DNA of 53,728 nt from Escherichia phage ES2-BCU-3. The notes below the pieces were generated by a model, which searched no databases, was not told the DNA's origin, and was given only the letters and a program-made list of their open reading frames with translations. The position numbers were made by a program, and so were the translations under genes. Shown here piece by piece: positions 28,653 through 51,675 of this stretch (position 1 is its first letter; each line of letters opens with the position of its first letter). The stretch lies in sequence record PV733669.1; one strand, 5' to 3'.

Positions 28653-30623
28653 TTAGTGTGCCTCATCCCAGTTCATACCTATTTGCGCATCTGTAAGAAC
28701 AGGAACACGGAGTGGTAATACAGTTTCCATGACCTTTACAAAGTCTTTAAATCCTGCTTCTGCACTCTTAGTGTTTGGGATAGAGAAGTTTAATTCATCG
28801 TGTACTGTAAGACGTGGAACACCAATCTCGTCAAAGTACCCGTCCTCGTAACCTTTCAGCATACTGGCTTTCATCTGGTCCGCAGAAGAACCTTGAAGGA
28901 CTCGGTTGATTGCTTTGTGGGTGTTAGCCAGTTTAATGTTACCACGGTTGTAGGTAGCAAGAGCTTCATCTTTCGGAAGCGGAGTAAAGCCTTGTCCGCC
29001 CCATTCAGGCACCCACAAATCAAACCACGTTTTGCGGCCCATTATAGTTTCAACGTAACCCTGTGAGTAACATAGCTCTTCATAGTGTTTCATTGTTGCA
29101 CCGATGAATGGTGCACCTTGGTGGTAAGCCGCAAGGATTGGTTCTGCTTCTTCAGGAGTCATAGCCAGCTTACGGGCAAGCGCTTTAAGCATCATGCCAT
29201 ATAACAGACCGAAGTTAATTGTCTTCGCTGGTTTACGTTCTATAATGTGACCTGAGGCTTCCTTAATAATGTCGACCATAACAGCGTGGTAATCTGCTTC
29301 CGGGTTAGCCGCAAAAATTGCTCGTAACTCATCAGCACCCGGTCCGACTGCAAAATGCGCCATGAATCGATACTCGATTTGGGCGTAGTCGGCGGAAGCC
29401 CATCTGTGTCCAAGGTCCGGTACGAAACAAGAACGAACGAGTGGTCCCAATACTTTGTGTCGAGACGGTATATTCTGCAGATTAGGGTCAGATGAGCTAA
29501 ACCGACCACTAACGGTTCCGCCGTCATCACCGCGCATTTGATGGAATTGACCGTGAAGGAAGCCATTTGTATTCATCCCCAAGATGTAGCCACGAATGAA
29601 CGTGGACTGGATTTTCTCATAGGACTTAATCTCGGAAATAAGCTCTGCAAACGGATGATGCAGGCCTGCAAGAAAGTCCGCCGTAAATGATGGGTTACCT
29701 GCTTTAGTTCTGCCATACTCCAGACCTAAATGGTCAAAGGCAAGAGCAAGGTCACTACCCGAGTTGACGTTAACATTGAAACCAAGCTGGTCACGTATCT
29801 GCTTGTGCATCTTCTTAATCTCCTCGGACAATCTGTCGTCGGCGACCTTCGCTGCATCCAAGTCAACACGTACGCCTGCAAAACGCATTTTCAACATTAA
29901 TGGAATGAGCTTGCACTCCATATAAAACACGTCAGTTAAAGCCCAGCGTTGAAGTAAAGGCCACTGGGCTTTCATGATGTGGATTGGTAAGTCCGCATCT
30001 GATTCTGCATAGTAGCCCACAAGACGTGGAGGCGTTTTGTAGATGTACTTACGGGCTTCACCTGTAGGTTTACACCCGTAAGCTTCCGCAATCCACTCAT
30101 ACATTTCTGCTGAGTCTTTGCCTTCACCTACATATTTTCTTCCAAGTCCTTCCAACGCCACACGCGCACCTGGATCGAGAAGAGCTTCTGCATATTGAAC
30201 ATCCATGCACAGTCCTTTGACTTCCACGCCTTCTGCAGAAAGCCAGCCCAGGTCATATGTGATGTTAGCACCGACTTTAGTCTGCTCAGGTCGCGAAAGT
30301 TCCCGTCGTAACCAACCAAATACTTGCTCAACTGGTAGGTTATCCTCTGCTCCGAGTTCGTGTCGTATTGGGTAGTAAGCTTTGAATCCGTTGTCAGTGG
30401 CGACACTAACTCCAACGATATGACCTTCCCGCCTGGCCCAACCAGAACCATTTGTGTCCATCCCTGGGTCCCATGTTTCACAGTCAATACCGATAAGCTT
30501 CGCAGAAGACAAATCCGGGTAATGCGCGCGCGGCCGCCATCCAGTATCCCTGACATGCGGAATAGGACGGTTGATAGGTTTAACATTCTTGACCCCTTCG
30601 AATCCATCAAAAAGAAAACTCAT
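28653..30623 (-). CDS. DNA polymerase I (family A) with 3'-5' exonuclease domain
   Basis: Exo motifs IGIDCETWD, ITYDLGWL, YAESDADL; polymerase motifs A (DYAQIEYR), B (RKPAKTINFGLLYGM), C (VHDELNF). Confidence 0.85.
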   Translation of the reverse strand: MSFLFDGFEGVKNVKPINRPIPHVRDTGWRPRAHYPDLSSAKLIGIDCETWDPGMDTNGSGWARREGHIVGVSVATDNGFKAYYPIRHELGAEDNLPVEQVFGWLRRELSRPEQTKVGANITYDLGWLSAEGVEVKGLCMDVQYAEALLDPGARVALEGLGRKYVGEGKDSAEMYEWIAEAYGCKPTGEARKYIYKTPPRLVGYYAESDADLPIHIMKAQWPLLQRWALTDVFYMECKLIPLMLKMRFAGVRVDLDAAKVADDRLSEEIKKMHKQIRDQLGFNVNVNSGSDLALAFDHLGLEYGRTKAGNPSFTADFLAGLHHPFAELISEIKSYEKIQSTFIRGYILGMNTNGFLHGQFHQMRGDDGGTVSGRFSSSDPNLQNIPSRHKVLGPLVRSCFVPDLGHRWASADYAQIEYRFMAHFAVGPGADELRAIFAANPEADYHAVMVDIIKEASGHIIERKPAKTINFGLLYGMMLKALARKLAMTPEEAEPILAAYHQGAPFIGATMKHYEELCYSQGYVETIMGRKTWFDLWVPEWGGQGFTPLPKDEALATYNRGNIKLANTHKAINRVLQGSSADQMKASMLKGYEDGYFDEIGVPRLTVHDELNFSIPNTKSAEAGFKDFVKVMETVLPLRVPVLTDAQIGMNWDEAH

Positions 30624-34697: not shown

Positions 34698-34931
34698 CTA
34701 AAAAGGAATGTCATACTCAAAATCTTTACAACCGGATGCTTGTATCTTCGGCGGCGGTAACTTGCCTCCGAACCGTGTACAAACATCTTCCTTATAATAG
34801 AGGCACTGCACACAACTCATATCCTGTAAAAAGATGATGAGTTGTCTACGAGCTTCTGGCGGCAACGTCTTTGCGATTGCTGCCACTTTATTGAATTCAT
34901 CTTGGTTGGCCAAAACCATTCCCCCAGTCAT
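34698..34931 (-). CDS. Small Cys-rich protein
   Basis: 77 aa with CVQC...C...C spacing suggesting a zinc-binding fold; overlaps the 3' end of the helicase gene by 35 nt. Confidence 0.4.
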   Translation of the reverse strand: MTGGMVLANQDEFNKVAAIAKTLPPEARRQLIIFLQDMSCVQCLYYKEDVCTRFGGKLPPPKIQASGCKDFEYDIPF

Positions 34932-36570
34932 AGTTCATGATTTGTGGGTAAGGGCGTTTAATCCATACCTTCAGTTGCTTAGGTACAGCAAGCTCACCCT
35001 TACGTTTGATAAACTCGTCACATGTTGATGGAGGTTCAGTGCCTGCAGCATTCTTCCACCAAGCATCTGCCATATTCTTAGCAGACCCATAAGCTTCAAC
35101 GTTGACCCATGTTGTGTATATCTCCAGGTTAGAATAGTATATTACCTTTATACTATCGGGTCTTCCTGGTTTCTGAAACAACGAATAGTTTACCAGCGTA
35201 ACTGATTTGTCTACAACACGAAGCTGTCCATTCGTCATTACTTCTTCTTCCGAAGATTCCATTGCAATAGCAGGACCTGACGTCTGGAATGTGAATTCAT
35301 GCCCGCAAGCAGGATATACACCGTTTTCATCAGGCTTACTTCCTTTAGCAGGATGCTTACAGAACTTGGCTGCAAATCCACTTACCTGATGGCAGATAGG
35401 ACATTCCTTGCCACCAACAGTCTTTGGTCCGCCTTTCTTTTTCTTCTTGCCAAGACGCGGAGGTACTGCAGGGTCGTCGATAGGACCAAGGTCAATAGTG
35501 TTAGATGTAAAGTCCATTACCAGGCAGTTCTCTTTACCCGGCGCAGTACGTAAACCACGACCCAGAATCTGTACCCACAAAGCGACAGAAGTGGATGGTC
35601 TGAGAATCCCGAGCATATCAATCTCTGGATAGTCAAACCCTGTTGTCAATACGTTTACGTTAACACAGACACGAGCTCTACCACTTGTAAACTCATCAAG
35701 CAGATGCTCTCGCTCTTTCTTACTTAACCCGCCATGTATGACAACTGTCTTCCATCCGCGTATCTCGAACTCATCGGCTACTTCATACGCATGGTCAACA
35801 CTTACTGCAAACACAAGTATGTGATGCCTGTCACTACCATAGTGCATCATCTCACGAATGGCTGCACCGGTTATGTCTGCCTGATTGACTGCTGCTTCAA
35901 GTTCGGAAGGTATGTAATCACCCATACGTGTTCCGACATTCGAAGTGTCAATCTTAGTTAATACTTTCTTATTGACAAGGCGTGACAAGAAACCTTCATT
36001 CACCAGACGAGTGAATGAGTCAGGTGTTGTCAGGTCATAACAAATGTCTGTAAAGATACCGCAATCAAGTAAGTGACCACCGGCTAAACGATACGGAGTT
36101 GCTGTAAGACCAGTAACCTTAATCTTCGGGTTAACTTCCTTGAAGTGCGCAATAACCTTACGATAAGTTGTCTCGGACTTCTCTGGAACAAGATGAGCTT
36201 CGTCAATGAAGATAAGGTTGAACTTACCAGCTTCTTCCAGGTTGTTGATGATGGACTGAATTGATGCTACAACAATACGACCTGATAAGTCTTTACGACC
36301 TACAGATGATGAGTAGATTGAAACTGGTGCATGTGGCCAGTGACGAGTAATAGCCTTGGCATCCTGCTCAACAAGCTCTTTAACGTGTGTCAGGATAAGA
36401 ATACGTTGACGAGGATATTGAGTAAGAATATCCTTCATAAGCATACCGAGTACAGGAGACTTACCTGACCCAGTAGGCATGACAATCAATGGATTGCCTG
36501 AATGTGAATTGAAGTAAGACCACCAAGCGGTGACTGCTTCTTGTTGATACCAGCGAGCTTCAAAAGCCAT
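34897..36570 (-). CDS. DEAD/DEAH-box (SF2) DNA helicase
   Basis: Motif I MPTGSGKS, II FIDEAH, III LTATP, VI QILGRGLR; C-terminal Cys pairs (CPICH...C) suggest a zinc finger. Confidence 0.8.
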   Translation of the reverse strand: MAFEARWYQQEAVTAWWSYFNSHSGNPLIVMPTGSGKSPVLGMLMKDILTQYPRQRILILTHVKELVEQDAKAITRHWPHAPVSIYSSSVGRKDLSGRIVVASIQSIINNLEEAGKFNLIFIDEAHLVPEKSETTYRKVIAHFKEVNPKIKVTGLTATPYRLAGGHLLDCGIFTDICYDLTTPDSFTRLVNEGFLSRLVNKKVLTKIDTSNVGTRMGDYIPSELEAAVNQADITGAAIREMMHYGSDRHHILVFAVSVDHAYEVADEFEIRGWKTVVIHGGLSKKEREHLLDEFTSGRARVCVNVNVLTTGFDYPEIDMLGILRPSTSVALWVQILGRGLRTAPGKENCLVMDFTSNTIDLGPIDDPAVPPRLGKKKKKGGPKTVGGKECPICHQVSGFAAKFCKHPAKGSKPDENGVYPACGHEFTFQTSGPAIAMESSEEEVMTNGQLRVVDKSVTLVNYSLFQKPGRPDSIKVIYYSNLEIYTTWVNVEAYGSAKNMADAWWKNAAGTEPPSTCDEFIKRKGELAVPKQLKVWIKRPYPQIMNYDWGNGFGQPR

Positions 36571-36628
36571 TTAACGTCTCCTCACTTAATATAGACATTA
36601 TATCACTTCCATGTGATAACGTACACTT

Positions 36629-37504
36629 TTACTTTAAGGAGAAGGTGACTGGTTCTTCACTTTGTGGGAAGACGTCTGCAGGTTTATAATCCCCGCATGC
36701 TGCCAGTTGTGTTTGAATTGTTTCAAGGTTATGGTTATGCTTTTTACAGTACCATACCTTGCCCTGTACAGGAGATGAATATGCACAGGTCCGGCAGTTC
36801 TTATCTGGTGCAGCACCTTTGTGGCACAGATGATGGTATTCACACATACCTACACGACACTGCCACCACAACGGCGATTCAGAAAGCTTCGGCATATCAA
36901 GACCAGACTCAGCAGTAATCACGGCTTCTGCTTTTGACAGCTGCATATCACTTTCTAACAGGTCAAGAGTAATCTCTTCATAATACATCTCATCGGTGTT
37001 CTTGTTGATTGCGATGTATAACGCCCTGTCAAGCTTCAGCTCTCGCATATAAACCTGCATCTGAGAATAGTGAACAGGCTTACTTGCTTTAACAGACTTG
37101 TGCTTAATCAGCTCTTTGAATGACTTGTCGCCGTGTGTCTTAAACTCGGTTAAAGCCCATACGCCATTGAACTTGATTACACAGTCACACGAACCAGAAA
37201 AGATGTCGTTGAATTTACTGATTCGCCATTGCTTACCCGTCTTAGGGTTTACAGGCAATACTTCTTCACAAACAGAGCGAAGCCAACCGATAATACGGTC
37301 TTCTTCCAGCGTACCACGGTTAAACAATCGTAACTGCTTAGCTGTGAACTTCTCTTTGTATGACCAGTGCAATACGTGCCACAGGTAACGGTAGCACTCG
37401 TGTCCAATTTGTGAAGCGCCTAAATGTCCGCGACGTTCTTCCTTCTCGTGGGCTTCTACAATAGCAACATCAATACGTTTGCCAATCTTATCCAGCAATC
37501 CCAT
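36629..37504 (-). CDS. PD-(D/E)XK nuclease with Cys cluster (Cas4/RecB-like, putative)
   Basis: D...EFK-type core (DCVIKFNGVWALTEFK), an N-terminal Cys (HECY) and C-terminal C-x4-C-x5-C cluster plus CRTC...C...H; start placed at ATG 37504 with GGAG RBS (alternative ATG 37540; track 37627). Confidence 0.45.
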   Translation of the reverse strand: MGLLDKIGKRIDVAIVEAHEKEERRGHLGASQIGHECYRYLWHVLHWSYKEKFTAKQLRLFNRGTLEEDRIIGWLRSVCEEVLPVNPKTGKQWRISKFNDIFSGSCDCVIKFNGVWALTEFKTHGDKSFKELIKHKSVKASKPVHYSQMQVYMRELKLDRALYIAINKNTDEMYYEEITLDLLESDMQLSKAEAVITAESGLDMPKLSESPLWWQCRVGMCEYHHLCHKGAAPDKNCRTCAYSSPVQGKVWYCKKHNHNLETIQTQLAACGDYKPADVFPQSEEPVTFSLK

Positions 37505-37505
37505 T

Positions 37506-37970
37506 CTAGTCTCCTGCAAGGTCTCCAGGTTCAAACTCATCGTAGATAACTCCTGCTCCCACAACCAGGTGAGAGACGGCGTTTGCCATGCTGTCTTTCC
37601 ACTTGGATTGCTTAGCCTTGTGTACAAAGGCTACAACACGTCTGACGTGTAAATTGGCAGTAAGCATCTTCGCACAATGTTCGCACGGAGGATATGTGAT
37701 GTATACAGTAACCGGGCCTAACGAGGAAGCGTCTAACTCCTTCCTTATATTAGCTAGTGCATTTACCTCACTATGTATAGTGAGAGCGTTCTTAAGCTCA
37801 TTAGGCACCTCCTTTAAGGCGTCTAACTGCTCAGGCAAACCGTTATAACCTGTTGATATAATTCGCTTTTTGGCATCGACGATTACACATCCAACCTGGC
37901 GCTTAGGGTCCTTAGACCAGCTAGCAATCTCCTGAGCCACTCGTAAAAAACGCTTATCCCACTTATCCAT
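37506..37970 (-). CDS. dCMP deaminase
   Basis: Zinc-binding motifs HSEVNA and PCEHC; ATG at 37970 with GGAGGA RBS (track ORF starts at TTG 37988). Confidence 0.75.
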   Translation of the reverse strand: MDKWDKRFLRVAQEIASWSKDPKRQVGCVIVDAKKRIISTGYNGLPEQLDALKEVPNELKNALTIHSEVNALANIRKELDASSLGPVTVYITYPPCEHCAKMLTANLHVRRVVAFVHKAKQSKWKDSMANAVSHLVVGAGVIYDEFEPGDLAGD

Positions 37971-37981
37971 AGTATCCTCCG

Positions 37982-38010
37982 CATACAAAAACAGGAGCCG
38001 AAGCTCCTGT
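37982..38010 (-). terminator. Rho-independent terminator with UUCG tetraloop, minus strand
   Basis: Minus strand reads ACAGGAGC-UUCG-GCUCCUGU followed by UUUUUGUAU; stems at 37991..37998 and 38003..38010. Confidence 0.6.
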
Positions 38011-38030
38011 TTGATTATACCTGGGTTAGA

Positions 38031-38570
38031 TTACTCTTCCCAAGGAGCCGGTTCGTCGGTCTTACCAGACGTTGCACCAGCAGCGGCACTTGCCCCCGCA
38101 CCCGCAGTCACTGTTTGTTTCTGCGAGGTCGTTTGAGATGCACCTTGCGTTGAACCAACAGCAGTAGTTGCTTCAGACGCATTTTTGTATTCTTTAATAT
38201 CGTTGCGGTCGTCGTACTGACCGGTCTTATCAATCTTAATACCGACCTTACCCATTACGATGCGGTTTTCCAACAGGTCAGTGCTGGTAAGTTCAACGAT
38301 ACCAACTGCACGGCACAGCTGAGACAGTTTGCGGTGGCCAATATCAACAGCCTGTTGATTCGGGTTAGAGTAGGTAATCATGTCAAACACGACACGGTTA
38401 GCGAACTCACCTTCATTAACACGCAAACGAAGGGACAGGTATGAACCAGTTCCTGCAGCAGTCGGCTTAAGCTCGACTTCTTCAATCATCAGTTGATACC
38501 AGTTCTTAGGAATTGGGTCAAACGATGCTTGTGGTTCGACTTCTGCAGAGTTAAACTGTAATTCAGCCAT
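38031..38570 (-). CDS. Hypothetical protein, possible ssDNA-binding protein (DUF669-like)
   Basis: 179 aa with Gly/Ala/Thr-rich acidic C-terminal tail ending PAPWEE; adjacent to the RecA-like ATPase gene. Confidence 0.4.
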   Translation of the reverse strand: MAELQFNSAEVEPQASFDPIPKNWYQLMIEEVELKPTAAGTGSYLSLRLRVNEGEFANRVVFDMITYSNPNQQAVDIGHRKLSQLCRAVGIVELTSTDLLENRIVMGKVGIKIDKTGQYDDRNDIKEYKNASEATTAVGSTQGASQTTSQKQTVTAGAGASAAAGATSGKTDEPAPWEE

Positions 38571-38639
38571 GGGTTTTACCTTTTCAATAGTTTAAGTTTT
38601 GGTTTAACGCTTTACCGGCAGCGTTCGGCCGTGGAACAC

Positions 38640-38669
38640 ATTATACGCCACTTTTTATCGCGGCGTAAA
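38640..38669 (-). promoter_or_regulatory. Sigma70-like promoter (TTTACG-18-TATAAT), minus strand
   Basis: Reverse complement of cgtaaa(38664..38669) and attata(38640..38645). Confidence 0.45.
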
Positions 38670-38674
38670 CGTTT

Positions 38675-39565
38675 TTATTCGCCGGATTCTTCTTCGGCTT
38701 TAGCCTGTTCAGCCGCCTTCTTGGCAATCCAAGCCATATGCCTTTCTTTCGATTCATCTGAACCGATTTTGGTAACACCACCTGGGTCAGTGTTATTCGC
38801 TTGTTCTGCTTCACGCCCAGTCATAAGCACATAGCTATCAGACTCAGCATGGTAGTACCAAAGCTGATAAGGATGATACCCCTGCAGCTTGTCGTAAATC
38901 CAGCCGAGGTTAGCAGGTTCACGTGCATCCAGCTCACGGCCTGGTGCGTTACGACACTTAGCTTCCCATTGGAAGTCAGGTTGTGTCTGCAGGTAACGTT
39001 CACAGTTACCATCCTTGTCAGGTGCAGTCATGCGTAAAGCAAGTACAGCATCCATAAGATAAGGAAGTTGTTTCGGTAACTGCTGACCAGGCATGAGAGG
39101 CGAATAAAGCATTGCACCGGTAACTTCATCTTTATTCTTCTCCAGCTTACAAAGGTAAGCAACGCTGAAAGGCAGGTCACGGAACTGACGCATGATATAC
39201 ATCATCTTGTCGTTCGTGTTACCATACGCCTGGCGTTTGTCATTGACCTGAGTCTTCTCATAGTCAAGACATACTTCAGCGACGTCAGAAAGAGAATCGA
39301 AGATAAGGTGCTTGTACTTCTTCGCTTCTTTGCTTTCAGTTAGCCATTTGTACAGGTCCAGAATATCCTGGAACTTACCAATGGGAGTTGAGTCAATGTC
39401 TGCATCAGCTACAGACATCAAGCCACCTTCAGCATCGATGATAAGCACTTCACCGTGAGGCAGTGTTTTAGCCAGGCTGGTCTTACCTACACCAGACTGG
39501 CCGTACACCGCAACCTTTGGCAGTTTGTTTTCAACTGCCGATTTGGTAGAGCGGATTTGTACCAT
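38675..39565 (-). CDS. RecA-like AAA ATPase (Sak4-type recombination protein, putative)
   Basis: Walker A GQSGVGKTS near the N-terminus, Walker B-like LIFDSL; sits beside SSB-like and nuclease genes. Confidence 0.55.
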   Translation of the reverse strand: MVQIRSTKSAVENKLPKVAVYGQSGVGKTSLAKTLPHGEVLIIDAEGGLMSVADADIDSTPIGKFQDILDLYKWLTESKEAKKYKHLIFDSLSDVAEVCLDYEKTQVNDKRQAYGNTNDKMMYIMRQFRDLPFSVAYLCKLEKNKDEVTGAMLYSPLMPGQQLPKQLPYLMDAVLALRMTAPDKDGNCERYLQTQPDFQWEAKCRNAPGRELDAREPANLGWIYDKLQGYHPYQLWYYHAESDSYVLMTGREAEQANNTDPGGVTKIGSDESKERHMAWIAKKAAEQAKAEEESGE

Positions 39566-39795
39566 TAATGATAGTCCTCGTATAACATTTCAGTGTCAGC
39601 GTACATCAGATAAAGTGCCTCGACGGCATCGTCCAGACTCTCGAATTGTTCACCGCAAACGTAGAACTCGGACACTCCGTCTTGTGGGTAACGTTCTTCA
39701 ACTACCCAGTCATGACGAATACCGTAAGTCCAATAGTCACAGGCTTCACCTGCTTTCAGTTTACGGGTGGCTTTGAATTGGTTGAGTGTTAACAT
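39565..39795 (-). CDS. Hypothetical protein
   Basis: 76 aa; GAGGAG RBS; own promoter. Confidence 0.5.
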   Translation of the reverse strand: MLTLNQFKATRKLKAGEACDYWTYGIRHDWVVEERYPQDGVSEFYVCGEQFESLDDAVEALYLMYADTEMLYEDYH

Positions 39796-39821
39796 GGCTC
39801 GCTCCTCATGTGTATAGGAGT

Positions 39822-39851
39822 ATTATACCCCACTTACATGGGGTATGTACA
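39822..39851 (-). promoter_or_regulatory. Early-type promoter (GTGTACATA -35 region, TATAAT -10), minus strand
   Basis: Minus strand reads GTGTACATAC-N16-TATAAT; tgtaca 39846..39851, attata 39822..39827. Confidence 0.5.
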
Positions 39852-39854
39852 CTA

Positions 39855-40280
39855 CTATTTCACACGAGTTGCGTTACACGCCATCGGATGGTGACCAAGT
39901 CTTGTGATAAGACCGTCAAGCAGAATTCCAGCGTGAGTCTCGTTGTATGCTTCTACCCACAATGGCAATTCCATGTTCGGCATGTACACGTTGAACTTGT
40001 ACACTTCTTTGAATGCCTTGCTGACAAGCATAATGGCAAGAGGTTTCGGAAGTTCAATACCTTTGTTCTTCCAGAAGTTATGGAACTCATCACCGTTGAC
40101 AATACCGTGCAGTATACGCTGAGTCAAGTCAGTCTTGAGGTCTGCCCTTGCTCTGGTATTGATATAGAAACGGCAAGAGAAGAACTCATTGACGTTAACG
40201 ACATCAACCGCATAAACCATGTTAGGTTCATCGGTTGTTGGTGCGGTGTATACTACGTGTTTAGTTTTGAACAGTTCCAT
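39855..40280 (-). CDS. Hypothetical protein
   Basis: 141-aa ORF. Confidence 0.5.
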   Translation of the reverse strand: MELFKTKHVVYTAPTTDEPNMVYAVDVVNVNEFFSCRFYINTRARADLKTDLTQRILHGIVNGDEFHNFWKNKGIELPKPLAIMLVSKAFKEVYKFNVYMPNMELPLWVEAYNETHAGILLDGLITRLGHHPMACNATRVK

Positions 40281-40326
40281 CGTACTCTCCTTGGAGGAAG
40301 AGGCGGGATTGCTCCCGCCGTATTGA

Positions 40327-41646
40327 TTATTGCAGTTGGTCTTTCAGTGCAGCGATACCCTGGAGCAGAGAAGCAATCTCAGGATTGGTCTGAGCCAGCT
40401 CCATTACAACAGACTGCTTACGACGGTCCATCTCAGCCTGTACTTCCAGGTCAAGACGTGCAGATGCTTCACGCAGTAACTGTTCAGCTTGCTGACGACG
40501 TTCATACTTCTCGAAGTCAGGTACAGACACAATCCACTTCAGCGTCGCGCTGTTAAAGCCTGACGAGTTGGCTTCAGACACAGACACAACATCAACCAGC
40601 TTAGTACCTGCCAGCTCAGGATAGTTGCTGTTACGAACATCAACAACAGCTTTGTCACCGACTTTAACTTTGCCGATGTATTTGTAAGTATACACACGAC
40701 CGTTAGGTTCAAACTTAACGCCGACATACTTCAGTTTGTCGTCCGCAGTTTCAACACCCTGAGTCAGGTTAATCGACACAGGTGCAGAATGAGTATGGTT
40801 AGCCAGCTGTTGAGCAGACATCATTTTAGATGTCAGGTACTGCTCAGAGAAGATTGGCTTAATAGAGCTGAATACATTTTCATTGTAAGTCAGCCAGTTA
40901 CCAGTCTCGTCGATACAAGCAATCTGGCTTGTACCATCCAGCGAACGAACGCCAGGACGGTTCTTTTCGATGTTGTACAGTTTACCGATGTTCAGGTTAG
41001 CATACTGCTTGCACGCAATACCCCAGTTCTGTTTTTCGGATTTGAACTGTTGGAAACGGTTGGTGCTGAAGTTCTGCTTCAGACCGCGGTCGTCGATAAT
41101 CCAGATGTTCTCATACGCATTATCGGTGGCGCCGAGATTAGCGTACACCTTGCCCTGAGTCAGCAAGCGAGTGTTACCTTCGTCAACACAGATAACGAAG
41201 TTAACTGCATCGTGAGCTTTACCGTTTTTATCGAATACTTTAGCCATTGTCTTTGTTTCCTTTGTCTGATGAACGCTTTTGATACGAGCTGTATATTGAC
41301 CAGGTTTAATTGGTCCGTCTGTTGTAAGTGCCAGCTTAACGCAAACACCTTTACCTATTAATTGTGTTAATTCCACTTGAGTCACCTCAGGTTGTGGGCG
41401 GGAAAAGAACTCAGCCATCTCAAACGAACTCCACCAAAAAGAAGCGTTAAATGGATGTTCGCTCAAATCAAGGATAGGTTTTCCCGCGCTGAAGTGAGCC
41501 GGTGCCTTACCCTGGTAGTTGACGCTCTTACCGATGTTTGAAGCATCCATGGCAATCTGTTCCAGACGAGCGATTGCTGCTTCATACTTACGTTCAAAAG
41601 CTGTAGGACCAAACAGCGCACGACGAATACTGGACAGATTGAACAT
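40327..41646 (-). CDS. Hypothetical protein (439 aa)
   Basis: Long early-region ORF with AAGGA RBS and own promoter; C-terminal coiled coil. Confidence 0.55.
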   Translation of the reverse strand: MFNLSSIRRALFGPTAFERKYEAAIARLEQIAMDASNIGKSVNYQGKAPAHFSAGKPILDLSEHPFNASFWWSSFEMAEFFSRPQPEVTQVELTQLIGKGVCVKLALTTDGPIKPGQYTARIKSVHQTKETKTMAKVFDKNGKAHDAVNFVICVDEGNTRLLTQGKVYANLGATDNAYENIWIIDDRGLKQNFSTNRFQQFKSEKQNWGIACKQYANLNIGKLYNIEKNRPGVRSLDGTSQIACIDETGNWLTYNENVFSSIKPIFSEQYLTSKMMSAQQLANHTHSAPVSINLTQGVETADDKLKYVGVKFEPNGRVYTYKYIGKVKVGDKAVVDVRNSNYPELAGTKLVDVVSVSEANSSGFNSATLKWIVSVPDFEKYERRQQAEQLLREASARLDLEVQAEMDRRKQSVVMELAQTNPEIASLLQGIAALKDQLQ

Positions 41647-41680
41647 GATTGTGTTTCCTTATTGCTTAACCGTTAAAAAG

Positions 41681-41710
41681 ATTATATCACTAGTTAGTGG
41701 TGATGTATAC
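41681..41710 (-). promoter_or_regulatory. Early-type promoter (GTATACAT -35 region, extended -10), minus strand
   Basis: Minus strand reads GGTATACATCA-N-TAGTGATATAAT; gtatac 41705..41710, attata 41681..41686. Confidence 0.45.
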
Positions 41711-45147: not shown

Positions 45148-45480
45148 ATGATTAAGCCAAAGCTGTTACGGCACATTCGTAACGGTGTTAAACTGCTTGC
45201 CGAAGGAAATGAGTATACTTGCAAGCAACGAGGTATCACAAAAGTCGGTCTATTTAATAAAGAACTGCCAATGCGATATTTCACCAAGTCACCATTGACC
45301 CTGGTTCCTGCAGCAGAGTATTACAAAGACCCCGAAGCAGCACGTGCAAAGATTAAGGATGCACTTGATTTGCTTGTCGAGGAAGGCTACTTGACTATTC
45401 GTCAACACACTGAATCATCTTTCTATTATAAGCCAACCCTCAAGGTAACCAGCAATGACAATGACGAGTCAGCCGAGTGA
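45148..45480 (+). CDS. Hypothetical protein
   Basis: 110-aa ORF with AGAGGAG RBS. Confidence 0.5.
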   Translation: MIKPKLLRHIRNGVKLLAEGNEYTCKQRGITKVGLFNKELPMRYFTKSPLTLVPAAEYYKDPEAARAKIKDALDLLVEEGYLTIRQHTESSFYYKPTLKVTSNDNDESAE

Positions 45481-47983
45481 TATTTTAGGGCTGAAGTTCT
45501 TCAAACCAGAAGGCATCCCTCAAGTCTTCAAAGATATGAAGCGCTGGGGTATCTTCGAATTAACGTACGAAGACGATAAGCTCGAAGTACAATCAAAACC
45601 TAAGAAACCGGCAAGGGCCCCGTCCGGGCGTTCCTTTAGCACCACTGTACCTGAAGAGTGGATGACATTCGACGAAGCATTGAATCGATGCATTCGCAAC
45701 CGTGAGATGAAGATTAAAGCTGTACAGGGTAATATAACCTTTGTACCAGCATTGATTGTTCCTCGCCAATGGTACTTTGTTGACCTGGACAACCATGAAG
45801 ACAACCCAGATATTGAGGCAACCCACAAAGCCATAATTGAAGGGACTCGCGGTGCTTATGCTGAGACATCTATCTCGGGTAAAGGTCAGCACATCGCTAT
45901 ACCATTACCATGGACTGCAGCAACGTCCAAAGAGAAAGACGACCTGCTGGACATCAAAATCCAGAAGGCTGAGATGTTCCTGGTAATGACAGGTAACGTG
46001 TTGAGTGAGTTCAATGCCAACCCTGTATCAGCCAAGCAATGGCATGAAGCTATTGAGCGATTCTTCCGTGATGCTTCAGCTCCTGATATTGATGTACAGT
46101 TTGAGCAAGACCCTGACCTGGGTGAAGAGCATGACAAAGAGCTGTATGCTCAGTTAGCCGAGAATACTCGTTGGGCATTAGAACACCCAATGAATGAGCA
46201 TGCACCTGATGGTGTTGGTGTAAGTAATGATGGTTCCGAACGTCTTAGCCGTATATTGAAAGACTTACTTCGTGTTACCCGTAATTACGAAGTCACACAG
46301 CGCATCTTTATGTCAAGTGCTGCAGCTCAGTACTCAGGACGACGTGCAAGCCGTATCAATTTGAGTGAGACACAATATCTGCAATGGTTCAGCCGTGTAG
46401 GTAAGACTGTACTCAAAGAGATGCAACGTGACGGACTGTTTGTCAAGACTGCATTTGCTCTGGACATTAACAAAGAGCTGATGAAGAAGTCTGGCATTAA
46501 ACTTGCCGACAATGTAGAGTTCAAGGTTGATGAAGACATTCTACCGTCTGAAGAGTTTGTACGTACAGCCCCAACAGGTTTCAAAGCTCTTATCGCCGAA
46601 GTGCAAAGCAATATTGCACCAAGCAAACGAGTGAATGACTACGCCATCGGCACCGCACTCAATATCCTGAGTAACTGTGCAGGACGCAAGTATGTTTGCC
46701 CTGTTGAAGGTCATGCAAACTTCCTGGTGACTAACATCATCCTTGTGGGTGGTTCATCTATCGGTAAGTCACTTTATACCGAGATGTTCCCGCAGATTCA
46801 GGCCGGCCTTCCAGAAGGTTCACCGCTGAGTCTGTTACGCATACCCCGTGAGCAGACGTTTGCAACCAGGACATTCGCCGAGATGATGGCTAACCCGTCA
46901 TTCCACTCGGTACAACTGTTCTACCCTGAATTTGGCCTGGCATTAGGTTCTGGTTTACGCATGAACCCTAACAACCCAGACAACTTCCAGAAGGCTTTAA
47001 TGGATGCTTCAACCAAGCGTAAGGTTGGCGGTATCTTAACAGGCATTAAACGTGCCAATGCTGAGAATGATGTTAAGGCGGTTCACGAACCTTGTTACTC
47101 TATCTTTGGTGACTCGACTCAAGAGCTTATCCTTGACAACACTCGTAAGCAAGACTTCTCATCTGGCTTCTTACCTCGCTTCCTGTTCATTCCGAACTAC
47201 GAACGAGCAGACTTTGCACAACCTGAGAAGGTAGGACGCCGTAAAGAAGTTCGCCGAGTACAGTTCAGCAAGGATATGATTGAACAGCTCGAGGCAATTG
47301 CTTATGTCAATGCTATTCCACCAAACGGACGGCTGAGACACGAACCAATCGCCATTTACGATGAGTCCGACGATGATGACATCTTGTATGAGTACCAATG
47401 CAAGATTAATGACATGCGTCGCTACTATCGTGATAACGAAGTTGCATCAGCCTTTGTGGGTCGTATGGGAGAATATGTCTTCAATATCGCCTCACTAATT
47501 GGCTTGCTTGATAATTGGGACAATCCTGTAATGACTCGTGATAACATTGAATGGGCATACAAATATGTTCTTCGTTGTATCACAGCCTGGGTTAACAATG
47601 CCAGCAAGGTAATTGCTCCACCTACAACTGACGCTGAAGTGGTTGACGGCTTCCTCAAAGTGTATCGGGACCTTTTGGCCCAGTACAACAAGAAAGGCTG
47701 GAAAGGTATTGTCAAGCATTATCCTGATAACATTGTACGCAATCTCAAGGAAGACCACCTCAAGATGAATGGCTTATCAATATATGCTATTCGTCAAAGT
47801 ATGGGCTGGTTTAAGACTTCTTACAACTTTGAGATTAAGAACAAGGCAATTGACGGCATGCTCAAGGATATGATAGACCAGGACTACCTTGCTGTCCAAG
47901 TATATAAGCCACCCACAGGTAAGTCGTCCAATTTGTACTGCTTAACTGAACGCGGTTACTCAGAAGCCAAGAAACTTAAATAA
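45455..47983 (+). CDS. Primase-helicase (AEP-type primase/polymerase domain fused to SF3-type helicase)
   Basis: N-terminal VDLDNH and SGKGQHIAIP resemble the archaeo-eukaryotic primase catalytic core; C-terminal P-loop VGGSSIGKS with downstream acidic motifs typical of D5/SF3 helicases. Confidence 0.6.
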   Translation: MTMTSQPSDILGLKFFKPEGIPQVFKDMKRWGIFELTYEDDKLEVQSKPKKPARAPSGRSFSTTVPEEWMTFDEALNRCIRNREMKIKAVQGNITFVPALIVPRQWYFVDLDNHEDNPDIEATHKAIIEGTRGAYAETSISGKGQHIAIPLPWTAATSKEKDDLLDIKIQKAEMFLVMTGNVLSEFNANPVSAKQWHEAIERFFRDASAPDIDVQFEQDPDLGEEHDKELYAQLAENTRWALEHPMNEHAPDGVGVSNDGSERLSRILKDLLRVTRNYEVTQRIFMSSAAAQYSGRRASRINLSETQYLQWFSRVGKTVLKEMQRDGLFVKTAFALDINKELMKKSGIKLADNVEFKVDEDILPSEEFVRTAPTGFKALIAEVQSNIAPSKRVNDYAIGTALNILSNCAGRKYVCPVEGHANFLVTNIILVGGSSIGKSLYTEMFPQIQAGLPEGSPLSLLRIPREQTFATRTFAEMMANPSFHSVQLFYPEFGLALGSGLRMNPNNPDNFQKALMDASTKRKVGGILTGIKRANAENDVKAVHEPCYSIFGDSTQELILDNTRKQDFSSGFLPRFLFIPNYERADFAQPEKVGRRKEVRRVQFSKDMIEQLEAIAYVNAIPPNGRLRHEPIAIYDESDDDDILYEYQCKINDMRRYYRDNEVASAFVGRMGEYVFNIASLIGLLDNWDNPVMTRDNIEWAYKYVLRCITAWVNNASKVIAPPTTDAEVVDGFLKVYRDLLAQYNKKGWKGIVKHYPDNIVRNLKEDHLKMNGLSIYAIRQSMGWFKTSYNFEIKNKAIDGMLKDMIDQDYLAVQVYKPPTGKSSNLYCLTERGYSEAKKLK

Positions 47984-47989: not shown

Positions 47990-48027
47990 GGGCTTAGGTG
48001 TTATATGCATCTAAGTCCTTCTTTTTT
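47990..48027 (+). terminator. Rho-independent terminator
   Basis: Stem gggcttag(47990..47997)/ctaagtcc(48011..48018) with one G-U pair, 13-nt loop, then TTCTTTTTT. Confidence 0.55.
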
Positions 48028-48034
48028 AAGCTCT

Positions 48035-48342
48035 TTTTTCCGGCGGAGGCAATGCATATAATCATATATTTGAATATATATCACTTAAACCTTTGTTTTA
48101 TATACTCTTTTCGAATCCATAATCCATATAGCTTTCTTTAAATAATTAAGGGGGTAATAAGGGTACACAAGACCAGATAAAGGGGTAGATATTATTATTT
48201 ATTTATTATATATATTATATATATTTATATATTAGATAAAGAGTAAGTAAAACAGCTACTTAGAAGGCTAGAATCCATATTCACGGGAATATAGTTATAT
48301 GGATTACAGACCGGATAAAGAAAATCCTCCGCCGGCGGAAAA
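48035..48342. other. AT-rich block bounded by inverted repeats (candidate replication origin)
   Basis: Inverted repeats tttttccggcggagg(48035..48049) and cctccgccggcggaaaa(48326..48342); a 45-bp run of only A/T (48191..48235); internal aatccatat/atatggatt inverted repeats; two AGGGGTA direct repeats. Confidence 0.45.
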
Positions 48343-48379
48343 TTTAAAAAAGTCGGATTGCTAAATAAATTCGTAGACG

Positions 48380-48408
48380 TTTACACTGTGATTAATATGT
48401 AGTACAAT
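48380..48408 (+). promoter_or_regulatory. Sigma70-like promoter (TTTACA-17-TACAAT)
   Basis: TTTACA 48380..48385; TACAAT 48403..48408. Confidence 0.45.
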
Positions 48409-48458
48409 AATCACCAATATCCCAAATTAGCAGAATTTTCAACAGGATTGAATACAAT

Positions 48459-48887
48459 ATGGTTAACATTCGAGTAAAAGGCCAAAACTTTGAGCGTAAA
48501 ATGGCAAAAAAATTCAATGAATCATTTGGATTGAGTGTTGAACGCAATCTTCAACAGTCTATTAATGGCGGGGATGACTTACTCGGGGTACCGTTTTTCA
48601 GCGTTGAGCTTAAAAAACACAATACAAAAGCCATCGGTACGTGGTGGCGTCAATGTGAGGAGTCAGCAAAGCGTCATGATAAGACGCCTGTACTAATATA
48701 CGAACTTCCACGCCAAAAGCCAGTCGTTGTAATGCGACGCAGTGACGTGGATGTTGGTATATTACCACTTGGTACAACTTTCAAAGAGGCAACTAACAGG
48801 CTCTTTGTGGGCTTGGTAGAGCTAACATGGGAACAATTTTGCCAGGTCTACAACTTTTACGTTGCGCCTGGCGTTGATGTCAGTTAA
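48459..48887 (+). CDS. Hjc-like Holliday junction resolvase (PD-(D/E)XK), putative
   Basis: KGQNFERKMAKKF...G and DDLLGVPFFSVELKK parallel archaeal Hjc motifs KGxxxER and D...ExK. Confidence 0.5.
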   Translation: MVNIRVKGQNFERKMAKKFNESFGLSVERNLQQSINGGDDLLGVPFFSVELKKHNTKAIGTWWRQCEESAKRHDKTPVLIYELPRQKPVVVMRRSDVDVGILPLGTTFKEATNRLFVGLVELTWEQFCQVYNFYVAPGVDVS

Positions 48888-49068
48888 CAGGTTTTAGCTC
48901 GTCGCAGATAACACGCTGGTTTTGTGCAGGCACTAATCCCAGTTCTAACAAAGTGTATGGACTATCGGCAGCACATTGTTCTACGGTAGTCCATTCAGGT
49001 TTCGCTTCGACAACTTTGTATTCACAGTCGTGTGCAGCGATACAAGTAGCAAGAATCAAACCAATCAT
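48880..49068 (-). CDS. Hypothetical small protein
   Basis: 62-aa ORF with hydrophobic N-terminus. Confidence 0.4.
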   Translation of the reverse strand: MIGLILATCIAAHDCEYKVVEAKPEWTTVEQCAADSPYTLLELGLVPAQNQRVICDELKPVN

Positions 49069-49314
49069 TTATTTACTCCTGATGCCAAGTTTATTGAACA
49101 ACCAAATACACATATCAACCCAGGTTACTGGTACAGTTTTCGGGGGTTGATAAGACCATGCTTTTGCAGCTCGCTCCGCATTTTCTTCTCGCCTGCGCGC
49201 TTGGCGTAATACTTGACTGTCAGTAATGCCGGCAGAAAAAACATCGGCAATGTGAGATAAATCGCGTCGATGAACACGTCCAACCAAATCATTCAGTTGC
49301 TCCTCAGAAAACAT
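49069..49314 (-). CDS. Hypothetical protein
   Basis: 81-aa ORF; GGAG RBS. Confidence 0.45.
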   Translation of the reverse strand: MFSEEQLNDLVGRVHRRDLSHIADVFSAGITDSQVLRQARRREENAERAAKAWSYQPPKTVPVTWVDMCIWLFNKLGIRSK

Positions 49315-49426
49315 AACTCAACACCATACATACGATAACAATACCAATTACAATCCGCCACATGCTACGATTAACAGCATATACCGGATTCTCAGTAGTA
49401 TACTCAACAACATGTTTACGGACCAT
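49304..49426 (-). CDS. Small hydrophobic peptide (40 aa), not in the ORF track
   Basis: ATG at 49426 preceded by AAGGAGG (6-nt spacer); encodes MVRKHVVEYTTENPVYAVNRSMWRIVIGIVIVCMVLSYVF with one TM-like helix; stop TGA 49304..49306. Confidence 0.4.
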   Translation of the reverse strand: MVRKHVVEYTTENPVYAVNRSMWRIVIGIVIVCMVLSYVF

Positions 49427-49448
49427 AATCGGCCTCCTTGTGGGTTAA

Positions 49449-49493
49449 TTCAATCATGAGGACTTTCATCAAATCCTCATTGTTGAATTACTC
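49449..49493 (-). promoter_or_regulatory. Conserved-flank intergenic hairpin (early operon element 1)
   Basis: Minus strand reads GAGTAA-TTCAACA-[ATGAGGA...TCCTCAT]-GATTGAA; 7-bp stem between the upstream stop and the next RBS. Confidence 0.5.
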
Positions 49494-49793: not shown

Positions 49794-49818
49794 GTTTCTC
49801 TCCTCAGTGATATTAATC

Positions 49819-49839
49819 AAGTCCCGGATACCGAGACTT
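49819..49839 (-). promoter_or_regulatory. Intergenic hairpin (early operon element 2)
   Basis: 9-bp stem aagtcccgg/ccgagactt with 3-nt loop; lies upstream of the 49793 start. Confidence 0.4.
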
Positions 49840-49847
49840 TGTTAATT

Positions 49848-50275: not shown

Positions 50276-50296
50276 GTTTCTTCTCCTGTTGAATAA

Positions 50297-50774: not shown

Positions 50775-50796
50775 GTTTTTTACTCCTGTTGATTAA

Positions 50797-51645: not shown

Positions 51646-51675
51646 AATAGTCACCTCATGTATTAGTTTCCAGGT

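What the first reader, a model, noticed from the sequence alone, without database searches (positions are those of the whole stretch)
36629..39565. Compact recombination module: Cys-cluster nuclease, SSB-like protein and RecA-like ATPase, with an Hjc-like resolvase elsewhere
Adjacent minus-strand genes encode a PD-(D/E)XK nuclease with a Cas4/RecB-like Cys cluster, a DUF669-like acidic-tailed protein and a Sak4-type ATPase (Walker A GQSGVGKTS). An archaeal-type resolvase lies at 48459..48887. Together these suggest recombination-dependent replication. The nuclease carries an additional CxxC...C...H element beyond the usual cluster.
Basis: partly seen in the sequence, partly recalled or inferred. 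Interest (0 to 1): 0.4.

Follow-up and report, generated by a model that had tools for sequence, protein, structure and literature searches.

The report
Known phage recombination gene module

Summary
The window is a complete genome of Loughboroughvirus ZCSE2/S144 (97.7% identical). RefSeq relatives already carry these names.

Corrections:
- The nuclease starts at ATG 37504, not TTG 37627.
- A dCMP deaminase (37506-37970) sits between the nuclease and DUF669.
- The extra cysteine element is CxxC-x12-C-x16-C. All four Cys are invariant; the His is not conserved.
- The module extends downstream to a RadD-like helicase (34897-36570) and a 73-77 aa Cys4 protein ending in ...EYDIPF (34698-34931).

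The order Sak4, DUF669, nuclease, helicase recurs in four distant metagenomic phage contigs; nuclease then helicase also in two more phages.

Most likely mechanism, inferred and not shown: the nuclease and helicase resect DNA ends, Sak4 and its SSB anneal them, and the resolvase cuts junctions. This would support concatemer formation and repair.

Novelty is low. The eight-cysteine nuclease and the tail that resembles the SSB C-terminus are modest new leads.

The parts
38675..39565 (-). Sak4-type RecA-core ATPase / single-strand annealing protein, 296 aa. Walker A is GQSGVGKT (nt 39476-39502) and Walker B is LIFDS. It carries a roughly 65-aa C-terminal extension that ends acidic (AEEESGE).
   Evidence: Pfam AAA_24 103.5 bits (cutoff 27). 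PHROG_124 'Sak4-like ssDNA annealing protein' E=1.2e-50. Weak match to solved Sak4 of phage 52A (8rc5, E=0.042, residues 11-212). Walker residues are invariant in an alignment with 4 distant relatives, and the extension is absent from all of them.
38031..38570 (-). DUF669 single-strand DNA-binding protein, 179 aa. It has a low-complexity linker and the C-terminal tip ...DEPAPWEE (nt 38034-38057).
   Evidence: Pfam DUF669 44.5 bits (cutoff 21). PHROG_6015 and PHROG_378 'single strand DNA binding protein'. DUF669 proteins in four distant syntenic contigs also have P/Q/A-rich linkers and a P-W tip. HK620 DUF669 is a proven SSB that stimulates Sak4 through its tail (PMC5928155). DUF669 is linked to N4 SSB (PMC4889955).
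37506..37970 (-). dCMP deaminase, 154 aa. It is embedded in the module and translationally coupled to the nuclease gene. It is nucleotide metabolism, not recombination.
   Evidence: Pfam dCMP_cyt_deam_1 E=1.1e-22. PHROG_174 E=8e-39. Stop TAG at 37508-37506, nuclease ATG at 37504. A dCMP deaminase occupies the same slot in contig L004.
36629..37504 (-). Cas4/RecB-type PD-(D/E)XK exonuclease, 291 aa. Catalytic residues are D107, E120-x-K122 and Q148-x3-Y152. The 'iron staple' Cys set is C37 + C216-x4-C221-x5-C227.
36695..36796 (-). Second invariant four-cysteine module at the nuclease C-terminus: C237-x2-C240-x12-C253-x16-C270 (NCRTC...WxC...GC). It is a presumed metal site, either a HiPIP-like [4Fe-4S] or Zn.
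34897..36570 (-). RadD (YejH)-like SF2 helicase/ATPase, 557 aa, with a Cys-rich element (CPICHQ...C...C-G-H) after the motor domains. It lies directly downstream of the nuclease gene.
   Evidence: E. coli RadD 6jde E=1.7e-61 over residues 1-379. NCBIfam RadD E=7.5e-87, but 291.9 bits is below the cutoff of 720. Pfam ResIII + Helicase_C. The nuclease gene is followed directly by this helicase type in L003-L006, L010 and L011.
34698..34931 (-). Small conserved protein, 73-77 aa. It has CxxC-x7-C-x16-C, a PP motif and the C-terminal tail ...FEYDIPF (tail nt 34701-34712), which resembles the E. coli SSB C-terminal tip DDDIPF. Its gene overlaps the 3' end of the helicase gene.
   Evidence: PHROG_23504 (unknown function) E=1.1e-17. 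tblastn finds it in 65 phage records; in all four relatives inspected it lies directly after, and overlaps, the helicase gene. An equivalent ORF follows the helicase in metagenomic contigs L004, L005 and L006. Four Cys, PP and the terminal PF are invariant in 8 sequences. hhalign to the nuclease second Cys module: probability 59%, E=9e-5, all four Cys in register. SSB-Ct sequence from PMC10238739.
48459..48887 (+). Hjc-fold PD-(D/E)XK junction-resolving endonuclease, 142 aa. Catalytic motif is E12...D40...E50-x-K52 (nt 48492-48614).

Best explanation
This is the recombination and repair module of a virulent Salmonella myovirus, Loughboroughvirus ZCSE2/S144.

Proposed mechanism (inferred):
1. 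The Cas4/RecB-type nuclease, probably working with the RadD-like SF2 helicase encoded next to it and a small Cys4 protein, resects double-strand ends 5'->3'. The substrates would be terminal repeats, broken forks or cut genomes.
2. The DUF669 protein coats the exposed 3' single strand.
3. Sak4, a RecA-core ATPase, is stimulated by its cognate SSB and anneals or pairs complementary strands. This makes concatemers and restarts replication.
4. The Hjc-fold endonuclease, encoded about 9 kb away, cuts the branched intermediates before packaging.

What is shown here: family and fold assignments, catalytic and Walker motifs, the invariant cysteines, and conserved gene order across distant phages.

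What is inferred: the 5'->3' polarity, the physical nuclease-helicase partnership, Sak4-SSB stimulation in this phage, and any requirement for replication.
For: Identity of the genome: 97.7% identical to S144/ZCSE2. RefSeq names the genes 'Cas4-domain exonuclease', 'Sak4-like ssDNA annealing protein', 'DEAD/DEAH box helicase' and 'RusA-like Holliday junction resolvase'.

Family assignments.

Nuclease: RecB motifs and Cys invariant. The model's best matches are recombination exonucleases and Cas4.

Helicase: E. coli RadD at E=1.7e-61. RadD accelerates RecA strand exchange and binds SSB (PMC8887467; PMC10238739).

Synteny: Sak4, DUF669, [0-8 small genes], nuclease, helicase in four contigs whose nucleases are only 39-46% identical to the window's. 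Two further phages show the nuclease-helicase-small protein order.

Experimental precedent: HK620 DUF669 SSB stimulates Sak4 annealing through its C-terminal tail (PMC5928155). Sak4 and its SSB are required for phi11 replication and affect concatemer formation (PMC5499656). Sak4 of phage 52A forms Rad51-like filaments (PMC11846896).

Resolvase: Hjc fold.
Against: - No experiment exists on these proteins in this phage or genus.
- The nuclease and helicase of the related phage 9g module are explicitly described as of unknown function (PMC5567051).
- The phage has its own family A polymerase and primase, so replication need not depend on recombination.
- The DUF669 protein is the only SSB I recognised, so it may serve mainly the replisome.
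- The window's Sak4 is atypical: 296 aa, with a 65-aa C-terminal extension.
- The three arginines that form the SSB-tail pocket of E. coli RadD are not conserved in the phage helicases.
- A nucleotide-metabolism gene sits inside the module.
Confidence: 0.7

Rival explanations
1. The nuclease, the RadD-like helicase and the small protein form a DNA-degradation unit rather than a recombination resection unit. It would break down host DNA for nucleotide salvage or attack unmodified or competing DNA. Only Sak4 and the SSB would be recombination proteins.
For: The nuclease gene is translationally coupled to a dCMP deaminase and lies near thymidylate synthase and a MazG-like pyrophosphatase. In distant relatives the nuclease-helicase pair lies next to 7-deazaguanine DNA-modification genes. 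The 9g paper proposes restriction of unmodified DNA or host DNA degradation (PMC5567051).
Against: The pair keeps its position beside Sak4 and DUF669 in all four distant metagenomic contigs examined, whether or not modification genes are present: L004 and the window have none. The closest solved folds include the recombination exonucleases lambda Exo, LHK-Exo and RecE. RadD is a recombination accessory protein.
Confidence: 0.15
2. The genes are mainly replisome accessories. DUF669 would be the replicative SSB, the RadD-like protein a fork-remodelling or restart helicase, and Sak4 a mediator. Homologous recombination would be a side activity, not the purpose of the cluster.
For: Phages with DUF669 encode no other known SSB, and DUF669 was proposed as a replication SSB (PMC4889955). 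The cluster lies within the replication operon, between the polymerase (28653-30623) and the primase (45455-47983). Sak4 and SSB mutants of staphylococcal phages are replication-defective.
Against: This rival is not exclusive of the main explanation. The Sak4 family has demonstrated ATP-dependent annealing and recombineering activity. A dedicated end-processing nuclease and a junction resolvase point to recombination intermediates.
Confidence: 0.2
3. The second four-cysteine module of the nuclease, and the stand-alone small Cys4 protein, bind structural zinc rather than an iron-sulfur cluster.
For: Weak Pfam hits are to zinc ribbons (Zn_ribbon_RPB9 in 3/29, Zn_ribbon_RRN7) as well as DUF7140. 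hhalign against HiPIP is not significant. Even the canonical 4-Cys staple binds Zn in the DUF3799 nuclease structure 3L0A (PMC3466216).
Confidence: 0.45

Closest known systems
Sak4-SSB recombination pair of phage HK620 (HkaL/HkaK), and Sak4-Ssb of staphylococcal phage phi11
   Same: A RecA-core Sak4 ATPase (AAA_24) is encoded next to a DUF669-family SSB that has a disordered linker and a short C-terminal tip. In HK620 the tip (NDYPPF) is needed to stimulate Sak4 annealing.
   Different: The HK620 module uses Abc2 to hijack host RecBCD rather than its own nuclease and helicase. The window's SSB tip is ...APWEE, not ...PPF. Its Sak4 has an extra 65-aa C-terminal extension. The host phage here is virulent, whereas Sak4 was described mostly in temperate phages.
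Cas4 / AddB / Dna2 / EXO5 'iron staple' RecB-family nucleases (SSO0001 4ic1, Pcal_0546 4r5q)
   Different: It is not CRISPR-associated. The window protein has CX4C rather than CX2C in the staple. The family carries a second invariant Cys4 module that none of the solved relatives has. The Pfam PDDEXK_1 score is below threshold for the window protein.
Lambda Red (Exo/Beta), RecET, and T7 gp6 / gp2.5 / endonuclease I
   Same: The functional logic matches: a 5'-3' exonuclease, an annealing protein (with SSB) and a junction-cutting enzyme make concatemers and repair breaks. The nuclease model resembles lambda Exo, LHK-Exo and RecE.
   Different: The annealase here is an ATPase of the RecA/Rad51 superfamily, not Rad52-like or gp2.5-like. 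A RadD-like helicase accompanies the nuclease. The resolvase has an Hjc fold.
Nuclease-helicase pair of phage 9g and relatives (Nonagvirus / Seuratvirus type)
   Same: The same Cas4-like nuclease family is followed by the same SF2 helicase type, downstream of AAA_24 and DUF669.
   Different: In those phages the pair abuts the 7-deazaguanine synthesis genes; the window has none nearby. The function of the pair is unknown in the literature.
Archaeal Holliday junction resolvase Hjc/Hje
   Different: The sequence belongs to Pfam PDDEXK_15, a phage family, not the Hjc family. It has about 40 extra C-terminal residues. The model is only of moderate confidence (pLDDT 75).
E. coli RadD (YejH)
   Same: The two RecA-like motor domains align over 379 residues, E=1.7e-61. 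RadD works with RecA and SSB in recombinational repair.
   Different: The score is below NCBIfam's equivalog cutoff. The C-terminal third is unrelated by sequence. The SSB-tail pocket arginines are not conserved.

Membership tests
Cas4/RecB-family iron-staple nuclease | RecB motifs II (D), III (ExK) and QhxxY | tested here: met
   D107, E120, K122 and Q148 are invariant and Y152 is at least 90% conserved in 38 homologs. Features as defined in PMC4176176.
Cas4/RecB-family iron-staple nuclease | Four conserved Cys: one N-terminal plus C-x2-C-x5-C near the C-terminus | tested here: met
   C37, C216, C221 and C227 are invariant. The window has C-x4-C-x5-C. The family majority has C-x2-C: 240 of 251 sequences.
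Cas4/RecB-family iron-staple nuclease | Fold similarity to solved Cas4 structures | tested here: met
Cas4/RecB-family iron-staple nuclease | Curated Pfam model (PDDEXK_1, PF12705) above gathering score | tested here: not met
   The window protein scores 14.8 bits against a cutoff of 22. The 68%-identical homolog P0004 passes at 25 bits. PHROG_1990 matches at E=6.9e-97.
Cas4/RecB-family iron-staple nuclease | Association with CRISPR-cas genes (Cas4 proper) | tested here: not met
   This is a phage genome. The neighbours are a helicase, a deaminase and an SSB. It is Cas4-like, not Cas4.
Cas4/RecB-family iron-staple nuclease | Bound Fe-S cluster and metal-dependent 5'-3' exonuclease activity | not testable with these tools
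   This needs purified protein.
Sak4 (AAA_24, RecA-core annealing ATPase) | AAA_24 profile match and Walker A/B motifs | tested here: met
   103.5 bits against a cutoff of 27. G27, K28, T29 and D90-S91 are invariant with 4 relatives.
Sak4 (AAA_24, RecA-core annealing ATPase) | Core-only protein, shorter than 290 aa, with no extra domain (criterion of Lopes et al. 2010) | tested here: not met
   296 aa. The roughly 65-aa C-terminal extension is absent from four relatives of 201-246 aa.
Sak4 (AAA_24, RecA-core annealing ATPase) | Cognate ssb gene next to sak4 | tested here: met
   The DUF669 gene begins 105 nt downstream. About 80% of sak4 genes have such a neighbour.
Sak4 (AAA_24, RecA-core annealing ATPase) | ATP-dependent ssDNA annealing | not testable with these tools
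   Biochemical assay needed.
DUF669 / HK620-N4 type phage SSB | DUF669 profile match | tested here: met
   44.5 bits against a cutoff of 21. PHROG SSB families at E=1.9e-33 and 2.3e-7.
DUF669 / HK620-N4 type phage SSB | Disordered linker and acidic/aromatic C-terminal tip | tested here: met
   ...TSGKTDEPAPWEE. A P-W tip recurs in 4 syntenic relatives.
DUF669 / HK620-N4 type phage SSB | OB fold and ssDNA binding | not tested
The sequence search of the PDB found nothing.
Hjc (archaeal Holliday junction resolvase) | PD-(D/E)XK catalytic residues E...D...ExK | tested here: met
   E12, D40, E50 and K52 are invariant in 17 homologs.
Hjc (archaeal Holliday junction resolvase) | Hjc fold | tested here: met
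Hjc (archaeal Holliday junction resolvase) | Sequence membership in the Hjc family | tested here: not met
   Pfam assigns PDDEXK_15 (PF24608) only. A profile search of PDB sequences does not find Hjc.
Hjc (archaeal Holliday junction resolvase) | Dimeric, structure-specific cleavage of four-way junctions | not testable with these tools
   Biochemical assay needed.
RusA (label given by PHROG_244) | RusA profile match | tested here: not met
   There is no RusA Pfam hit, and the fold is restriction-endonuclease-like. The label reflects presumed function only.
RadD (YejH) | Homology of the two RecA-like motor domains to E. coli RadD | tested here: met
   6jde E=1.7e-61 over residues 1-379.
RadD (YejH) | NCBIfam equivalog cutoff | tested here: not met
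   291.9 bits against a cutoff of 720; the match ends at model position 393 of 573.
RadD (YejH) | SSB-Ct pocket arginines R21, R49, R145 | tested here: not met
   The window has N21, R54 and K151. Positions 21 and 49 vary across 7 phage helicases, while the hydrophobic pocket residues stay hydrophobic.

The most novel reading that the evidence does not exclude
The phage 'Cas4-domain exonuclease' family has at least 2,285 clusters at 50% identity. It may be a two-metal-centre nuclease: the usual iron staple plus a second, HiPIP-like Cys4 module. It may work as a three-part end-resection machine with a RadD-like helicase and a small stand-alone copy of the same Cys4 module. One component of the machine, whichever it is in a given phage, would carry a tail resembling the SSB C-terminus (...D-I/V-P-F). 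That tail would plug the machine into the same docking site that recognises the SSB tail, on Sak4, on the polymerase or on host SSB-partner proteins.
Probability: 0.25. Interest if true: 0.5.

Novelty: already known. Interest (0 to 1): 0.22.

Why it matters
The finding as written matters little. The phage genus is described, and its RefSeq records already name the nuclease, Sak4, the helicase and the resolvase. The Sak4/DUF669 partnership is experimentally established in other phages.

Two by-products could be worth a short study:
1. A very large phage nuclease family has eight invariant cysteines, not four. This implies a second metal centre that I found in none of the solved Cas4, AddB, Dna2 or EXO5 relatives and in no paper I searched.
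2. A tiny protein of unknown function (PHROG_23504) looks like a free copy of that second module. It ends in the E. coli SSB docking peptide and is encoded right after the helicase in several unrelated phages.

If these observations hold, they give a handle on how Sak4-type recombination systems couple end resection to annealing. That could help in building Sak4-based recombineering tools, which currently perform poorly.

Tried and rejected
- **Sequence-only PDB searches.** Searches for the nuclease, DUF669 and resolvase, with single sequences and with profiles, gave no significant hits. Fold comparison was needed.
- **Second Cys module against Pfam.** Only sub-threshold DUF7140 (3/29 members, best E=0.004) and zinc-ribbon hits.
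- **Second Cys module against PDB sequences.** Nothing.
- **Second Cys module against HiPIP by hhalign.** Three Cys align, but the probability is 0.35%, not significant.
- **Word-indexed protein search with the module alignment.** No result.
- **Literature search.** I found no paper on two-cluster Cas4-like phage nucleases or on DUF7140.
- **DUF7173 upstream of Sak4.** Four distant contigs have a DUF7173 gene there. The window's 141-aa ORF in that position (39855-40280) is not related to it.
- **Ku/Gam-like ORF01.** The S144 paper reports one. I could not confirm any Ku/Gam signal in the ORFs at the window start: 341-841 looks like a nucleotide kinase and 829-1641 is unknown.
- **RadD SSB-tail pocket.** The idea that the DIPF tail docks in the RadD-type pocket of the phage helicase is not supported by residue conservation.
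- **Technical limits.** The afdb50 fold library was unavailable. Model coordinates are not exposed, so Cys-Cys distances could not be measured.
- **Promoter and terminator scan.** Counts do not exceed shuffled controls. Even so, TATAAT-type sites sit in each intergenic gap, where S144 annotates promoters.


Full report
**What the window is**

A megablast of 34800-41700 against phage records gives 100% coverage at 97.7% identity to Salmonella phage S144, and 97.6% to ZCSE2, the type of genus Loughboroughvirus. Rosemountvirus phages match at about 76-77%. The first 127 nt of the window are identical to its last 127 nt. This is the signature of a circular assembly overlap, so the window is a complete genome of about 53.6 kb. 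In RefSeq ZCSE2 the genes in question are already named 'Cas4-domain exonuclease', 'Sak4-like ssDNA annealing protein', 'DEAD/DEAH box helicase' and 'RusA-like Holliday junction resolvase'. The S144 paper and record annotate an exonuclease, a deoxycytidylate deaminase, a DUF669 protein, a P-loop NTPase and a resolvase.

**Checking the observation**

The minus-strand ORFs exist as described.
- The nuclease hits PHROG_1990 'Cas4-domain exonuclease' at E=6.9e-97.
- The 179-aa protein hits Pfam DUF669 (E=2.2e-11) and PHROG SSB families.
- The 296-aa protein hits Pfam AAA_24 (E=1.7e-29) and PHROG 'Sak4-like' (E=1.2e-50).
- The 142-aa plus-strand protein hits Pfam PDDEXK_15 (E=6.8e-18).

Three details need correcting.
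1. The longest ORF for the nuclease (TTG 37627) overlaps the upstream gene. The N-termini of 37 homologs and the annotated relatives fix the start at ATG 37504, giving 291 aa.
2. A dCMP deaminase (37506-37970, E=1.1e-22) lies between the nuclease and DUF669. Its stop codon is one base from the nuclease start.
3. The 'additional CxxC...C...H element' is really a four-cysteine element; see below.

**The nuclease**

In an alignment of 38 homologs at 38-79% identity, the invariant residues include:
- the RecB catalytic set: D107, E120, K122 and Q148, with Y152 nearly invariant;
- eight cysteines: C37, C216, C221, C227, C237, C240, C253 and C270.

The first four cysteines reproduce the Cas4/AddB 'iron staple', one N-terminal Cys plus CxxCx5C, as defined in PMC4176176 and PMC3466216. 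The window and its closest relatives have CX4C instead of CX2C; the family majority, 240 of 251 sequences, has CX2C.

**The second cysteine module**

The pattern is C237-x2-C240-x12-C253-x16-C270, within NCRTC...WxC...GC.
- It is kept in 119 of the 120 listed homologs.
- The single exception, P0096, has lost all four residues together while keeping the first four. This argues for two separate 4-Cys sites.
- A profile search of 1.84 billion representative proteins finds 2,285 clusters at E<=1e-30. Of 146 further representatives, 132 match the eight-Cys regex. Of the 14 that do not, 13 keep all eight Cys with longer spacers; P0275 has lost the first Cys of the second set (NARTC) but has extra Cys nearby.

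**Sak4 and DUF669**

Walker A (GQSGVGKT) and Walker B (LIFDS) are invariant against four distant relatives. There is a weak match to the solved Sak4 of phage 52A (8rc5), which forms Rad51-like filaments. The window's Sak4 is unusual in having a 65-aa C-terminal extension with an acidic end. The relatives lack it, and it takes the protein past the 290-aa limit used by Lopes et al..

DUF669 is the Pfam family of the HK620 protein HkaK. That protein was shown to be a true SSB that stimulates Sak4 annealing and recombineering through its last residues, NDYPPF (PMC5928155). DUF669 has also been linked to the N4 SSB (PMC4889955). The window protein has the expected low-complexity linker and the tip ...DEPAPWEE. 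A P-W tip recurs in the DUF669 proteins of four syntenic contigs.

**The resolvase**

The gene just downstream of the nuclease (34897-36570) matches E. coli RadD at E=1.7e-61 over both motor domains. The NCBIfam RadD model matches at E=7.5e-87, though below the equivalog cutoff. RadD accelerates RecA strand exchange, and the SSB C-terminal peptide stimulates its ATPase (PMC8887467, PMC10238739).

Gene order in four metagenomic phage contigs, whose nucleases are only 39-46% identical to the window's, is always AAA_24, DUF669, zero to eight small genes, nuclease, RadD-like helicase. One of these contigs also has a dCMP deaminase in the gap. Xanthomonas phage Pfeifenkraut and Erwinia phage AH03 show the same nuclease-helicase order. 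The module is thus a conserved cassette, and the helicase belongs to it.

The ORF at 34698-34931 overlaps the 3' end of the helicase gene. It encodes a 73-77 aa protein (PHROG_23504, unknown function) with CxxC-x7-C-x16-C and the C-terminus ...FEYDIPF.
- tblastn finds it in 65 phage records. In the four relatives whose annotation I inspected (BP63, SOI901, Pfeifenkraut, AH03) it lies directly after, and overlaps, the helicase gene.
- Equivalent ORFs follow the helicase in contigs L004, L005 and L006.
- In eight sequences the four Cys, a PP pair and the terminal PF are invariant.
- A profile-profile comparison with the nuclease's second Cys module aligns all four Cys in register (probability 59%, E=9e-5). 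The small protein may therefore be a free-standing copy of that module.

Its tail matches the E. coli SSB tip, Asp-Ile-Pro-Phe. In contig L003 no small ORF exists, but the helicase itself ends in DDDIPF. In L005 the helicase ends in GDIPF. Of 266 nuclease homologs, 18 end in PF. These are mostly D[IV]PF, almost all in the long forms, and one ends NGYPPF, like the HK620 SSB tail. So a tail resembling the SSB C-terminus moves between the three components.

Where the tail docks is unknown. The three arginines of the RadD SSB pocket are not conserved in the phage helicases.

**Mechanism**

The best-supported reading is a single-strand-annealing and strand-pairing recombination system.
1. The nuclease, probably with the helicase, resects ends.
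2. The SSB coats the single strand.
3. Sak4, helped by the SSB, anneals or pairs complementary strands.
4. The Hjc-fold enzyme resolves the branches.

This fits the role of Sak4 and its SSB in replication and concatemer formation of staphylococcal phages (PMC5499656). It also fits the S144 authors' suggestion of direct terminal repeats, which would allow T7-style concatemer formation. The family assignments, motifs and synteny are shown here. Polarity, partnerships and any requirement for replication are inferred.

There are three rivals:
- a DNA-degradation or salvage role for the nuclease-helicase pair, as speculated for phage 9g;
- a mainly replisomal role for the SSB and helicase;
- zinc rather than Fe-S in the second site.

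**Verdict**

The genes, their names and the logic of the module are already in databases and papers, so I file it as already known and of low interest. The eight-cysteine architecture of a very large phage nuclease family, and the small Cys4 protein with the SSB-like tail, are the only parts that go beyond the record. They are leads, not results.

Noticed in passing
window 34698-34931 (-): Small conserved ORF (PHROG_23504, unknown function) overlapping the 3' end of the RadD-like helicase gene. It has four invariant Cys, a PP pair and a C-terminal ...EYDIPF identical in its last four residues to the E. coli SSB docking tip. It is found after the helicase in at least six other phage lineages, and it aligns with the nuclease's second Cys module (hhalign probability 59%).
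   Followed up: partly
L003:7930-9705, L005:7967-9820; nuclease homologs P0036, P0090, P0158, P0185, P0192, P0151: The SSB-tip-like tail (...DDDIPF, ...GDIPF, ...DDVPF, ...NGYPPF) sits on the helicase or on C-terminally extended nucleases in other members of the module. 18 of 266 nuclease homologs end in PF.
   Followed up: partly
window 1-127 and 53602-53728: The first 127 nt are identical to the last 127 nt. This is the usual sign of a circular assembly overlap (k=127), so the window is one complete phage genome of about 53,601 bp. It is not evidence of real terminal repeats.
   Followed up: yes
window 37506-37970 (-): A dCMP deaminase gene is inserted between the SSB and nuclease genes and translationally coupled to the nuclease (stop 1 nt before the ATG). 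A deaminase occupies the same slot in the distant contig L004.
   Followed up: partly
window 38675-38870 (-), Sak4 residues ~232-296: This phage's Sak4 has a roughly 65-aa C-terminal extension ending in an acidic stretch (AKAEEESGE). It is missing from four distant Sak4 relatives of 201-246 aa and has no Pfam hit.
   Followed up: partly
L003, L005, L006 (downstream of the helicase): In three of the four distant contigs the Sak4-SSB-nuclease-helicase cassette abuts 7-deazaguanine (queuosine/archaeosine-type) DNA modification genes: radical SAM QueE, QueC, PTPS and GTP cyclohydrolase I. The window has none nearby.
   Followed up: no
L003:1564-2004, L004:3557-3937, L005:949-1389, L006:4995-5420: A DUF7173 gene lies shortly upstream of the AAA_24 (Sak4) gene in all four distant contigs. 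The window's 141-aa ORF in the equivalent position (39855-40280, PHROG_37080) shows no similarity to it.
   Followed up: yes
window 39565-39795 (-): A 76-aa ORF with no family match. Its stop codon overlaps the Sak4 start (TAATG), which suggests translational coupling with Sak4.
   Followed up: no
window 48000-53728: G+C drops to 0.37-0.38 here, against 0.43-0.51 in the rest of the genome. The region is packed with short ORFs of unknown function around the resolvase gene.
   Followed up: no
window 341-841 (+) and 829-1641 (+): The S144 paper reports a Ku/Mu-Gam-like ORF01 in this cluster. I found no Ku or Gam signal: 341-841 hits a PHROG labelled thymidylate kinase, and 829-1641 is of unknown function.
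   Followed up: partly
window 35270-35380 (-), helicase residues ~398-432: A Cys-rich element (CPICHQ...FCKH...ACGHEF) follows the helicase motor domains. It recalls a zinc ribbon, and the C-terminal 180 residues have no Pfam match.
   Followed up: no
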